Positions 1,915-11,565 of a DNA stretch of 64,000 bases are shown here, piece by piece. This DNA is from Paraspadella gotoi (Eukaryota > Animalia > Chaetognatha), in contig CM119265.1 of NCBI GenBank assembly GCA_051294375.1, forward strand, positions 6,036,227 to 6,100,226. Reading direction: 5' to 3'. The translations under genes and the position numbers were made by a program. The notes beneath the pieces are model-generated. The model saw only the letters and a list, made by a program, of their open reading frames with translations. It searched no databases and was not told the origin of the DNA. Each line of letters begins with the position of its first letter. Within the stretch, counting starts at the first letter, position 1.

Positions 1915-7215
<5,301 letters not shown>

Positions 7216-8678
7216 GAGGGGTACGCCGTCGGCGTAGACTCCGAAACTGCCGTCGTGGGCGCAACGGCTTTGGTATCTTGGCCGGATACTTACGACATTG
7301 AAGTCAAAGATTCGCAGCATCCGCCAGCCGTCAAAACTAGTTCTTTCGAGAGTCAAGGAGAGTCGCGAGGAGCAGTCGCGCTGTCATCCGCTCGTCGAAC
7401 TCACCTTATGCGAGCGCCCCGAGCCGTCAGCTCCGTTGGATCCTTTGGCAGCGCTTCGTCCTGCAGCCTGGATCTGCCCGGAACCTCCGGCACACATCGC
7501 CTCTCCCCCAATTCTCCAACCTCCCCGCGGGGACCTTCTCCCTCTACTCCTTCGACTTCGCCCAGTCACTTAGCCCTCCGCCGCGGCGCTATGCATTTTC
7601 GCAGCTCCTCAACCAACACCACGAGTTCGACAACCTCGGGCATGTGCTCCTTGTCCTCAGTCGACTCACTGGAGGAGGCGGCTGGCTGGCCGACAATCGA
7701 TGAAGGCGGCGATCGGGAAGAATCCTCGGAGAGGATCGACGTTAGGCCAAAGTTTCCCCTGTTGGCGCTTCTTAAGGACGAGGACGGCGGCGGTTCGATC
7801 GATCAAAAAAATAAGCCGACCGACTCTTTGAGTTCGTCAAAAAATAGGGATTTCCAAGATTTGTGAGTTTTATTTTATTTTCCTCCTAGATTCTTCCCAA
7901 TTCTTTTTTGTTTGTGTCAATCCATCCAGTTTTTTAAAAAAACCCAAAAACCGTTGATATTATATCTGGCATGAAAAAAAAACTCTTTTCTCAGTGAAGA
8001 TAGCTTTTGGTGTTAGGTGCCTCTTTCTCTTTTCCCTTTGTTTCCTTTGATGTTGCGAAGTGGACACCTTTCTCTACGATATACTTTGTGCTAAGCTCTA
8101 TGCATACCGCGTACCCAGCTTGTTTTACTATACCTTTTTCTGTCCCTTCTTTTTCTATATCGCTATTGCACATTGTTATAAATGTATTCATGTTAAAAGG
8201 ATACAAAGTTGTTCATATCTATTTTATATTTCCTTCCCCCTTGACAAACTCATCTAGGAATTCAATGTTGCTCATCATACCATGTCCTGGCAATTCTTAT
8301 ATAAGATTTTTTCTAAGTCACGTTTTCATGTGAGAAACCTTTTTTGTTATTTGTGCACACGACGTGTAAATGTGATCGATGAAAACAAAAAAAAATCTTC
8401 TCTTGAATATTTCGAGACGAATCTAGTTTATTCTCCGTCAATTCTCGTGATATTGTTATCCTTTCCTCGCTTTTTTGACCTTCGTTTATCTCGATTATTT
8501 TTTAGATAATGACTCGGTAGCCTTGTTGCAAACTATTACATTATCACCACGAATAAAATTGTTACTGTTACATATTTCGATTTATATTTACTGACGTTAA
8601 ACCTTAAGAGCGTCGAGGTTAATAATAATTTTCAAGTTAGCTATTTTTAGGTTTCCATAAGCTACTATCTTCGTCAAT

Positions 8679-11565
8679 ATGCAATCTAGCGATAAAACGC
8701 TCACCCGTGCTCTTCAACTAGAAAATCGTCTTTCCTCCTTGATAGACATGACGGAAAAAGCTGAGGCCATGGTGAGGACCCGACGAAACGAGGCGTTGAC
8801 GAAGCTCGAAGAGTCCTATGTTGAACTTGCGAAGCGCAGAGGAGCCATGACGACGCAGATCCGAGCTGCGGCCGGGGTTAAGTCTAAGTCTCTAGACCGG
8901 CTCAAATGTTCGCTCGTCGCCAGGAAAATCGAGCTGGAATCGGTAATGGCCAACTGCCAACAACTTCAGCGCGCAAACAACCTCGAGAAAGAATCGCAGG
9001 TCCGATACAAGCTGGACCGATTCCTGCTCTCTTCCGATCTTGATTTCGAGTCCGAGTTGGCCAATATTAATCTTTGGTCTCATCTCGAGTTTTATTCCCA
9101 AAATGTCAGCCTCGGTCGCGTCGAAACGGGATTCATCGACGAGAGCTCTCTTCGTTTTCGCCACCAGCCAGAAGATACCGTGGCTCTAGAGTCTGGCGGT
9201 CGTGTCATATTAGACGTGCTATTCTCGACCCATCCGGTTCCAGCCTCAATGTCGGATTACGACTGGTTACTTGCTGTCAAACAACAGGCCGCCAACAGTT
9301 TAAGCCTTCGTGTGGAATCGAAGTGTCAAGAAGTTGTCGAGTTTGTTTTCTTCAAATTCACCAAAGTCGTCCCCGATGGGTTTCAGGCTTCGTTTTTTGG
9401 CCAGGTTAAAGCGCTTGGGGTACACAAAGTTTTCATTCTTGTAGACGATGAGCCCATAGTCGAAACACCGATTCATTTAAAGTTTGGCGACGCGACAGTG
9501 GATTCGATGGAGCTCGGAATCGTATCGATCGAAAATGGAGTCGCGACTCCCGTTAACGGAGAGTATAAAGTACCGGGTATCTTTCGCAAGTACGGGCCGC
9601 GCGTTTTTAAGGGCAGGGCGAAATTCTTTGACCAATCGCCCACAGAGAAAATTAAGGAAGAGTCTTTTTCGATTTCACAAGCACAAAATACTACAAGTCA
9701 AAAACTTGACAAGTATGTAGGGGGTGTTTAGTTTGAAACGATTATTACAGTTTAAATTTTCAAGTAAACCATTTCGTTATTATGATAGTAGTGAAGGCAC
9801 AAGTTTTAACATGAATCATATTTGATGTTATATTTTTTATACAATGTATAGAATGGAGATAGTCTACTAGCTCTAGTTTTACAGTTAGTCAACCCTTTAA
9901 TCATTTACTTTTTTCATCTGCTTGGACCGTAAATGACAAAGCATATCGCATAAAATGTTTACCCTCTTTTATCCTCCTCGTTTGTATACAATAAAAACTA
10001 ATTATTTAATTTATTGACTATCTGTACAATTATAATAATAAATATAGCTATCCAAATTAAGCACCCCTTCCCCAACTTTAAGTTTGTTTGAAAATGGTTT
10101 AAACGAAACCGATTCACGTTTAGGAAATAGTGATTCCTCGTCAAAAAGTACAGTGATTGGTTTGGAAGCAGAACACGAAGAATTACAAATAGAAAAATCC
10201 CATTCTCCTGGGTACGATAACAAGTGCGAAGCGACTCCCGATAAATTTATGCCTTTTCGACAACAAATTTCAGGGATTTGTATAAAGAAAGATAAGTCAT
10301 CTAATAATCCCAAAGACGTCAATGGTGTCAATGACCTGTTGCAAAAACCGAGCAACCTGACAACAAGGTCAAATGGAAGTATCTTTAAAGAGCAAAGACT
10401 AGAAAACGATAGGACTCAGTGCGATGGCGAAGCAACTGAAATAAATGAAAAATTACCTTTATTTGCCCGAAAAGAAAATGGTGTCGAAGATAAAAAAAAT
10501 AATACAAATAGAAGTCAGCATTCTTCCTCTGAGGGCCGCATAGTCTCCGATGCTCTGAAAACCTACCTTCAAAGATTTCTGAAACATCAGAACAAAGATA
10601 GCGTCCGAAATATAAATCCCTCTTCTCTGGAAGTTTCATCTGGCATCAAAAACGAAAACCTCAACCTCTCTGAGCTATTTCGCGGAAAGCGAGAAATCAT
10701 AGCCACCCGTCGAGGAACCGTCGGCCAAACCGGTGCGGGAAAGTTGGACTATCCCATCGGGATTTGTGTCGACGACGAACCTGACGGAACCGAAAATCTT
10801 TACGTCTGCGACTCGAAGTGTCATAGAGTCGTGGTTTATTCCAAATCCGGACAATACATACGTTACATCGGGAAGCGCTGCCTCGATAAGAGCTCCTGGA
10901 AGCCCGAAGAGTTTCATCGTCCTTCGGGGGTAGTCTGTACTGGCAGATTTGTTTTTGTCAAGGATCTTTATCGTATTCAAAAGTTTGACCGCGAAGGTAA
11001 TTTTCTCCTTTCTTTTGGTGCCGAGGAGCTTACAGAACCCTACGGGCTCATACTTAACAGCTACGGACACTTGGTCACCGTCGACGTTCGGGAAGGTAAA
11101 CCCTTTATCTGTATCTTCAACCAAGACGGGCGCTTGCAGCACAACCGCGTTCTTAAAGCTCTCGACGACAGAGACATCATTGCTCGTCTTGGCATTGATC
11201 CCAAGGGCTCCAAGTGCCGTTTCTTGGGGATTCACTCGGACCAGATTCACGTCGTTGATCTGGGTTTAAATAAAATCTTCGTCTGCGACTACGACGGAAA
11301 TTTCATTTCTGTGTTCGGCTCCGGTGGTCGAGGGGACGGCCAGTTTCAGGACGCCGCCGGAATAGCCTTTGACTCGGCAGGCAATTGTGTCGTAGCGGAT
11401 TCTAGAAACTGCCGACTCAATGCTTTCGACGCAAAGGGAAATTCGCTTGGGGTTGTCAGGACGACTGACAGCGCCAGGCGACCGTCGTCCATCGCGATTT
11501 CCAGAGCCGGCGATTTATTTGTTTGCAGTATTTGGGAAAATTGCGTCAAAAAGTTTTCATTTTAG
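8679..11565 (+). CDS. Coiled-coil + filamin-like + NHL-repeat protein (TRIM2/3/71-like, no RING/B-box seen)
   Basis: The first ORF has an N-terminal coiled coil and a filamin-like end (GVHKVFILVDDEPIVETP). The second ORF has NHL repeats (GKLDYPIGICVD, FHRPSGV, GDGQFQDAAGIAFDSAGNCVVADSRNCR). The linking exon(s) in 9713-10047 are uncertain. Confidence 0.75.

What the first reader, a model, noticed from the sequence alone, without database searches (positions are those of the whole stretch)
7213..7866. Stop-codon readthrough candidate in klumpfuss: UAG-G, stem-loop and 216 further open codons
Seen: the zinc-finger frame stops at TAG 7213-7215, but the same frame stays open for 216 codons to TGA 7864-7866. 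This stretch is GC-rich and S/P-rich like the gene's other exons; AT-rich 3'UTR-like sequence starts only after 7866. The context is UAG-GAGGGG, a 6-nt purine spacer, then the hairpin TACGCC-GTC-GGCGTA (7222-7236), extendable by GGGG/CTCC. Known: UAG-G plus purine spacer plus 3' structure is the gammaretroviral readthrough arrangement, and I recall Drosophila klu among reported readthrough genes (needs verifying). Inference: programmed readthrough yields a long disordered C-terminal isoform, possibly an old feature of this TF family. No AT-rich intron spans the stop.
Basis: partly seen in the sequence, partly recalled or inferred. Interest (0 to 1): 0.85.

Follow-up and report, generated by a model that had tools for sequence, protein, structure and literature searches.

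The report
Stop codon splitting a regulator's tail
An animal zinc-finger regulator gene carries a stop codon in its spliced messenger RNA, followed by 216 more codons that still look protein-coding, so ribosomes likely read through the stop at times and make a longer form, although a recent truncating mutation is not excluded.

Summary
TAG 7213-7215 is followed by 216 open codons to TGA 7864-7866. A spliced RNA contig from another study carries the TAG with no intron over it, and four DNA runs keep it. The stretch looks coding: GC stays 58% and falls only near the TGA, unlike 12 of 12 control ends. Both SNPs in it are synonymous; the two indels lie after the TGA.

The hairpin is small, a pseudoknot on it is impossible, and the structure signal vanishes beyond +7. 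Fly klu readthrough differs (UAA-C, 15 codons; mosquito orthologue not read through). None of 46 relatives has a long second ORF. Lophotrochozoan-type orthologues, which this gene resembles, encode a 131-334 aa serine-rich tail with no stop.

Best reading (0.5): a lineage-specific stop arose inside the old tail and is read through. Rivals: recent fixed nonsense (0.3), A-to-I editing (0.1), minor splicing (0.07). There is no ribosome or protein evidence. The scan noted readthrough in other C2H2 genes, but not this one.

The parts
2286..6896 (+). Eleven upstream coding exons of the klumpfuss-like gene (2286-2897, 2961-3142, 3349-3525, 3610-3716, 3798-4256, 4342-4511, 4732-4957, 5029-5099, 5176-5386, 5470-5991, 6769-6896). 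They include the divergent first C2H2 finger and finger 2. The 5' end lies further upstream and was not mapped.
   Evidence: 11 GT..AG joints in one RNA contig; spliced frame open for 1036 codons to the TAG; Pfam zf-C2H2_4, weak
6970..7212 (+). Last exon before the stop: end of finger 3, finger 4 and a 41-aa tail
7213..7215 (+). In-frame TAG (context GGT-TAG-GAG-GGG), the candidate leaky stop
   Evidence: unchanged in the RNA contig of X9 and in DNA runs X5, X6, X7, X8
7216..7223 (+). Purine-rich spacer (6 nt to the local hairpin, 8 nt to the long-range stem)
   Evidence: sequence
7222..7236 (+). Predicted local hairpin, 6 bp, 3-nt loop, -6.7 kcal/mol; extendable to -12.6 or -15.0 only by pairing spacer or stop bases
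   Evidence: null tests
7579..7618 (+). Predicted distant pairing partner: 7579-7588 pairs with 7224-7234 (10 G-C pairs, one bulge, 344-nt loop); 7604-7618 pairs with 7206-7222, covering the UAG
   Evidence: dominant in folds of 7150-7700 and 7200-7640, absent in the three longer folds; p = 0.09-0.15 for the +9 stem and 0.011-0.015 for the post-hoc 29-nt duplex
7216..7863 (+). 216-codon serine-rich extension with no Pfam domain; two S-hydrophobic-acidic-S motifs like those in lophotrochozoan tails; synonymous SNPs at 7488 and 7812
7864..7866 (+). Second stop, TGA, at the GC-to-AT transition
7867..8600 (+). AT-rich 3' UTR with a single AATAAA near 8552; two indel polymorphisms (7904, 7973)
   Evidence: the RNA contig covers it to at least 8200

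Best explanation
The gene's spliced mRNA holds a UAG 41 codons after the last zinc finger and then 216 open codons, and a minority of ribosomes likely read through the UAG, which would give a short main protein and a longer form with a serine-rich tail. Shown: the stop, its presence in mRNA and in five samples, and the coding-like character of what follows. Inferred: the tail is the family's old constitutive C-terminus, and the stop arose inside it in this lineage, independently of the 15-codon readthrough of fly klu. A near-cognate tRNA would decode the UAG (Gln in MuLV), perhaps helped by the purine spacer and a G-C stem starting at +7 to +9. Both forms keep all four fingers, so the tail would tune stability or co-factor binding through its many serine phosphorylation sites and not DNA recognition. 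This last step is inference only.
For: TAG in the spliced contig with no second contig over 7024-8200. TAG kept in 4 of 4 DNA runs laid. Frame open in only 7 of 20,000 shuffles; GC does not drop after the TAG (0.58 to 0.55) but drops after 12 of 12 other probable ORF ends in the window (0.39-0.54 to 0.25-0.36) and after the TGA. 2 of 2 SNPs in the extension are synonymous (chance 0.066) and 0 of 2 indels lie in it. Read-through tail length is 258 aa against 131-334 aa in 20 lophotrochozoan-type proteins. The motif S[FLIVM][DE]S is in 27 of 27 such tails, 0 of 32 other (shorter) tails, twice in the extension and never in the upstream 1036 aa (shuffle p = 0.015, motif chosen after seeing the data). 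A stem after an 8-nt spacer with a long loop is the layout reported for Drosophila kelch (PMC3159437). Transcription factors, klu among them, are known readthrough genes.
Against: No ribosome, peptide or reporter data. No close relative's sequence past the stop could be read (one search gave only 30 letters of a related species). A profile built from relatives' tails does not recognise the extension (19-51% of shuffles score as well). The reading-frame score is not significant against stop-free shuffles (p = 0.16). Structure outside the ribosome footprint is not above null. UAG-G is not the UGA-C context that dominates insect readthrough, and TAG readthrough is lost more often (PMC5100048). 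The fingers place the gene outside the pancrustacean-type cluster, where abundant readthrough was not found.
Confidence: 0.5

Rival explanations
1. Recent fixed nonsense mutation. A single base change put a TAG in the last exon, where nonsense-mediated decay is weak (established knowledge). The protein simply lost a disordered tail, and the 648 nt are an undecayed relic.
For: Relatives translate such a tail with no stop. Diversity is very low (2 SNPs in 2.1 kb over 4 samples), so fixation in all samples says little about age. All fingers lie upstream, and arthropod-type orthologues manage with 8-128 aa tails. About 17 such cases were estimated for D. melanogaster (PMC5100048). The open frame and the GC level are explained equally well.
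Against: Both SNPs are synonymous and there are no indels in the extension (p about 0.07). The stop is not polymorphic in 5 of 5 runs from 2 studies. By my estimate the frame would stay open for only about 1-2% neutral divergence, a short window. The sequence around the stop folds better than synonymous nulls (p about 0.01-0.03).
Confidence: 0.3
2. A-to-I editing. A long-range duplex over the stop lets ADAR change UAG to UIG (read as Trp) in part of the mRNA, restoring the long form.
For: U-A-G is the preferred ADAR triplet (recalled). The predicted duplex 7206-7234 with 7579-7618 covers the stop (-37.5 kcal/mol, top 1% of 197 windows; p = 0.011-0.015). Lophotrochozoan tails are dotted with Trp. 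Stop-loss editing is documented in Fusarium DBF2 (PMC13123824, abstract).
Against: The RNA contig reads A at 7214, so editing is not the majority form. The duplex vanishes in longer folds, was found post hoc, and has only 5 bp on one side of the A. ADAR genes could not be checked because no genome is held.
Confidence: 0.1
3. Minor splice form or separate start. The TAG doubles as a 3' splice site (donor 6896 joined to 7216 is in frame and would drop one and a half fingers), or a small intron skips the stop, or translation restarts at ATG 7408.
For: TTAG|G is a legal acceptor in the right phase. Assembled contigs drop rare forms.
Against: The 40 nt before the TAG are 60% GC against 15-42% for the 11 real acceptors; the score is -15.3 against -0.6 to +20.1, and 79% of 82 exonic decoys score as well. 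Every in-frame intron over the stop would be 53-62% GC against 17-35% for real introns. All 11 real donors have a purine at +3, whereas 7211 has T. No such joint appears among those listed (9 lesser joints were not shown). GC stays high from 7216, 64 codons before the first ATG.
Confidence: 0.07
4. Chance GC-rich UTR, assembly error, or a changed genetic code.
For: The frame-specific codon score alone is not significant.
Against: Five independent assemblies show the TAG. Three other ORFs in the window end in TAG with an immediate GC drop, so TAG is a normal stop. 7 of 20,000 shuffles are open.
Confidence: 0.03

Closest known systems
Drosophila klumpfuss readthrough (FBtr0076247 / klu-RB; PMC5100048 Supplemental Data S1, PMC9226519)
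   Same: Same gene family (the klu label is recalled; no hit in my calls is named klu). In-frame stop after the zinc fingers followed by a candidate extension; moderate readthrough measured in S2 cells.
   Different: Fly: UAA-C and 15 codons, with the mosquito orthologue not read through. Here: UAG-G and 216 codons, in a gene with non-pancrustacean-type fingers.
Drosophila kelch and headcase, alphavirus-type readthrough with an extended 3' stem (PMC3159437)
   Same: Predicted stem after an 8-nt spacer with a central bulge and a loop of hundreds of bases (kelch: 14 bp, 268-nt loop; here 10 bp, 344-nt loop).
   Different: kelch uses UGA and its stem is conserved in 12 species. Here there is no conservation data and the stem is not above null (p = 0.09-0.15).
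Gammaretroviral (MuLV) gag-pol readthrough (PMC4178896)
   Same: UAG followed by G and a purine-rich spacer.
   Different: MuLV needs a two-stem pseudoknot; here there is a 6-bp hairpin with a 3-nt loop, in a cellular gene.
Lophotrochozoan klu-like proteins (Owenia, Lingula, Lineus, Watersipora, Bugula, Octopus)
   Same: 68-71 of 82 identities over fingers 2-4; a long serine-rich C-terminal tail of similar length.
   Different: Their tails have no internal stop, and alignment-level homology to the extension could not be shown.
Platynereis FVa/EFLGa neuropeptide precursor (PMC3890597)
   Same: Proposed stop-codon readthrough in a lophotrochozoan gene.
   Different: A neuropeptide precursor supported by antibody staining, not a transcription factor.

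Membership tests
klumpfuss-like C2H2 transcription factors | Three tandem conserved fingers plus a divergent upstream finger (definition recalled) | tested here: met
   64-71 of 82 identities to arthropod-type and lophotrochozoan-type orthologues; finger 1 lies 106 aa upstream
klumpfuss-like C2H2 transcription factors | Direct match to a protein named klumpfuss | not tested
   No hit carried that name; the label rests on recall
Programmed stop-codon readthrough (Jungreis criteria) | Stop present in genome and mature mRNA, not removed by splicing | tested here: met
   (majority form only)
Programmed stop-codon readthrough (Jungreis criteria) | Protein-coding signature between the two stops | tested here: inconclusive
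   For: open frame, GC level, 2 of 2 synonymous SNPs. Against: frame score p = 0.16. No cross-species alignment.
Programmed stop-codon readthrough (Jungreis criteria) | First stop conserved beyond close relatives (excludes recent nonsense) | tested here: inconclusive
   Absent from distant orthologues; close relatives not readable past the fingers
Programmed stop-codon readthrough (Jungreis criteria) | Ribosomes or peptides beyond the stop | not testable with these tools
   Only assembled contigs were available
Gammaretrovirus-type signal | UAG-G with a purine-rich 8-nt spacer | tested here: met
   7 of 8 bases at 7216-7223 are purines; definition
Gammaretrovirus-type signal | H-type pseudoknot after the spacer | tested here: not met
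   The hairpin loop is 3 nt, too short for a second stem; no Rfam match at E <= 1. No pseudoknot predictor was run.
Selenocysteine recoding | UGA codon plus SECIS element | tested here: not met
   The codon is UAG; no Rfam match in 6900-8700
A-to-I stop-loss editing | G at the stop's A in RNA but not in DNA | tested here: inconclusive
   The contig reads A; minority editing is invisible in contigs

The most novel reading that the evidence does not exclude
In an animal outside the insect-crustacean group, a stop codon landed inside the family's old constitutive tail and was domesticated. Readthrough or editing, steered by a switch between a local hairpin and a 344-nt-range duplex, now makes the tail conditional. 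That would be readthrough born by interrupting coding sequence and not by growing into the UTR, and a second, independent origin of recoding in klumpfuss.
Probability: 0.35. Interest if true: 0.68.

Novelty: new member of a known kind. Interest (0 to 1): 0.45.

Why it matters
Abundant readthrough was reported as confined to Pancrustacea (PMC5100048), and my searches found only one proposed lophotrochozoan case. A 216-codon case in a developmental regulator from another lineage would widen that range. It would also offer a testable example of how readthrough begins: a stop inserted in old coding sequence. Either way, annotation will cut this gene at the TAG or invent an intron there. If the nonsense rival is right, it is a freshly truncated conserved transcription factor, which is mildly interesting but ordinary.

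Tried and rejected
No whole genome is held, so genome-wide second-ORF counts, suppressor tRNA and ADAR checks were impossible; the window has no tRNA. A search with the extension alone against longer proteins gave 0 hits among 7,616 candidates (weak evidence). The HMMER scan of last exon plus extension was swamped by multi-finger proteins and gave nothing on the extension. No Pfam family for the extension, no Rfam match. Tail profiles did not recognise the extension. A three-periodic Markov score favoured the frame by 26-47 log units but lost significance against stop-free shuffles, so I do not count it. A duplex search with 20-30 nt windows centred on the stop was not significant (7-41% of controls as good). 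The CAGCAGCA 8-mer enriched in insect readthrough genes is absent near the stop. Atlas searches and exact look-ups (0 of 6 found) did not place the organism. The finger tree is mostly unresolved; two divergent rows (L001, P0169) were left out of the later tree. Runs X10 and X11 of other organisms gave only 139 and 41 matching bases. No raw-read RNA run was listed. Earlier-finding look-ups by place and by sequence were empty. A six-term literature search on readthrough arising inside ancestral coding sequence found 0 papers, which does not show that the idea is unpublished.

Full report
Observation. The last zinc-finger frame ends at TAG 7213-7215 and stays open for 216 codons to TGA 7864-7866. 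Only 7 of 20,000 base shuffles of the stretch are fully open, and the other five frames hold 3-9 stops each. GC is 0.57 before the TAG, 0.58 in the extension and 0.33 after the TGA. As a control I took 12 other probable ORF ends on the plus strand, chosen by me and not confirmed by RNA. In all 12, GC fell from 0.39-0.54 to 0.25-0.36 right after the stop, and the next open stretch was 1-78 codons. Three of them end in TAG, so TAG is an ordinary stop in this organism.

The stop is real and is in the mRNA. Eleven public runs were listed, nine holding the stretch, all as assembled contigs. Run X9, from a different study, has a 5,505-nt contig that skips 11 GT..AG introns and then matches 6968-8200 in one piece with no difference. 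Its depth is flat over 7024-8200, so no second contig was laid there. Joining those exons gives one frame of at least 1,036 codons ending at the TAG. DNA runs X5, X6, X7 and X8, which may include the source of the window, all keep the TAG. Over 2.1 kb they differ at only two bases, 7488 and 7812, both synonymous in the extension frame, and by two indels, both after the TGA. Two synonymous changes out of two has a chance of 0.066 without selection. Contigs drop rare forms, so minor splicing or editing is not excluded. Splicing is unlikely on composition: real introns are 17-35% GC, any in-frame intron over the stop would be 53-62%, and the TAG scores as a worse acceptor than all 11 real ones.

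The proposed signal is weak. The hairpin at 7222-7236 exists but is worth -6.7 kcal/mol; eight such perfect hairpins occur in the 3,762-nt mRNA. The first 30 nt after the stop do fold better than synonymous nulls (p = 0.006-0.025). That depends on pairing the spacer, which a ribosome at the stop would cover (established knowledge); from +7 onward p is 0.43-0.50. The MuLV signal needs a pseudoknot after an 8-nt spacer (PMC4178896, passages), and a 3-nt loop cannot form one. I found a different possibility: 7224-7234 can pair with 7579-7588, giving 10 G-C pairs after an 8-nt spacer with a 344-nt loop. This is the layout reported for Drosophila kelch (PMC3159437, passages). Neighbouring pairs extend over the UAG itself. 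This duplex dominates two shorter folds and is absent from three longer ones. The +9 stem alone is not significant (p = 0.09-0.15), and the 29-nt version (p about 0.01) was chosen after the fact. It is a lead, not a finding.

Relatives change the interpretation. A motif scan of metagenomes gave 47 loci. Of the 46 with a stop (38 distinct tails), the second ORF has median 15 and maximum 89 codons. Fly klu readthrough is UAA-C with 15 codons, and the Anopheles orthologue is listed as Non-RT (PMC5100048 supplement row; PMC9226519 section 17 and supplement row). Readthrough here is therefore not a shared old feature. The window's fingers match lophotrochozoan-type proteins at 5 of 8 diagnostic columns, arthropod-type proteins at 1 and neither at 2. 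They fall outside the 19-row arthropod-type cluster with support 98 (two divergent rows left out; several mite-like loci lacked a recoverable finger 1 and were not included). These may be ancestral states, and the 21 hits were biased by shared words, so the phylum remains unknown. The 20 lophotrochozoan-type proteins all carry a 131-334 aa serine-rich tail with no stop. The window's tail is 41 aa to the TAG and 258 aa if read through. A short motif, S[FLIVM][DE]S, is in 27 of 27 such tails, 0 of 32 shorter tails of other type, twice in the extension and never in the upstream 1,036 aa (p = 0.015, post hoc). Profiles of those tails do not recognise the extension. Homology is therefore plausible but not shown.

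Mechanism. The extension is or recently was coding; that much is well supported. The simplest history is that a stop arose inside the old tail. Either it is now bypassed part of the time, or the tail was lost and has not yet decayed. I put translational readthrough at 0.5 because of the synonymous-only variation, the absence of indels, fixation across two studies, the modest folding signal, and the known tendency of transcription-factor genes to be read through. Recent nonsense gets 0.3: diversity is low, the context is not UGA-C, abundant readthrough was not seen outside Pancrustacea (PMC5100048 section 17), and that paper excludes candidates whose stop is seen only in close relatives for exactly this reason (passages). 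A-to-I editing gets 0.1 (precedent in Fusarium, PMC13123824 abstract), minor splicing or restart 0.07, and chance 0.03. Both protein forms keep all four fingers, so any function of the tail would be in stability or co-factor binding; this is inference.

Novelty. It is a candidate new member of a known kind. Papers: PMC9226519 (passages, section 17, supplement rows), PMC5100048 (abstract, sections 8 and 17, first parts of 3 and 7, passages, supplement row; one supplement file was not searchable), PMC4178896, PMC3159437 and PMC3890597 (passages), PMC13123824 (abstract). Searches listed no report of klu readthrough outside Drosophila; the library lacks most subscription papers. Earlier scan notes describe readthrough in other C2H2 genes of arthropods and fungi, none on this gene.

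Noticed in passing
window 22998-63391: Strong strand bias: twelve consecutive genes (PGI, Nop14, POGZ-like, EFR3, TrpRS, PPP1R21, PDS5, pICln, XPG/GEN1-like, IDH, DnaJ, Maelstrom) lie on the plus strand with short gaps. Of 75 minus-strand ORFs of 85 aa or more, only 4 hit Pfam, all from two genes (Na/H exchanger, NAP) at 17.5-21.9 kb. Operon-like organisation is possible.
   Followed up: partly
window 8552-8679: The klu-like poly(A) signal lies only about 100 nt before a T-rich AG acceptor, which sits about 28 nt before the next gene's ATG. This spacing resembles trans-spliced operons (recalled).
   Followed up: no
window 5992-6768: The one long intron (777 nt) holds a high-copy repeat with summed contig depth up to about 4,900 against 62 for the gene; possibly a small transposon.
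   Followed up: no
window 5697-5765: Finger 1 is strongly diverged (6-9 of 23 identities to relatives) and lies 106 aa from finger 2, much further than in orthologues.
   Followed up: partly
window 7224-7234 and 7579-7588: Two near-identical self-complementary GC motifs in different codon phases, able to pair with themselves or with each other.
   Followed up: partly
window 8661-11565: An NHL-repeat gene with a coiled-coil-like N-terminal ORF lacking any Pfam hit.
   Followed up: no
L005, L010, L021, L026, L029: Insect-type klu tails contain a 24-aa unit repeated four times, against one copy in L018, L020 and L035.
   Followed up: no
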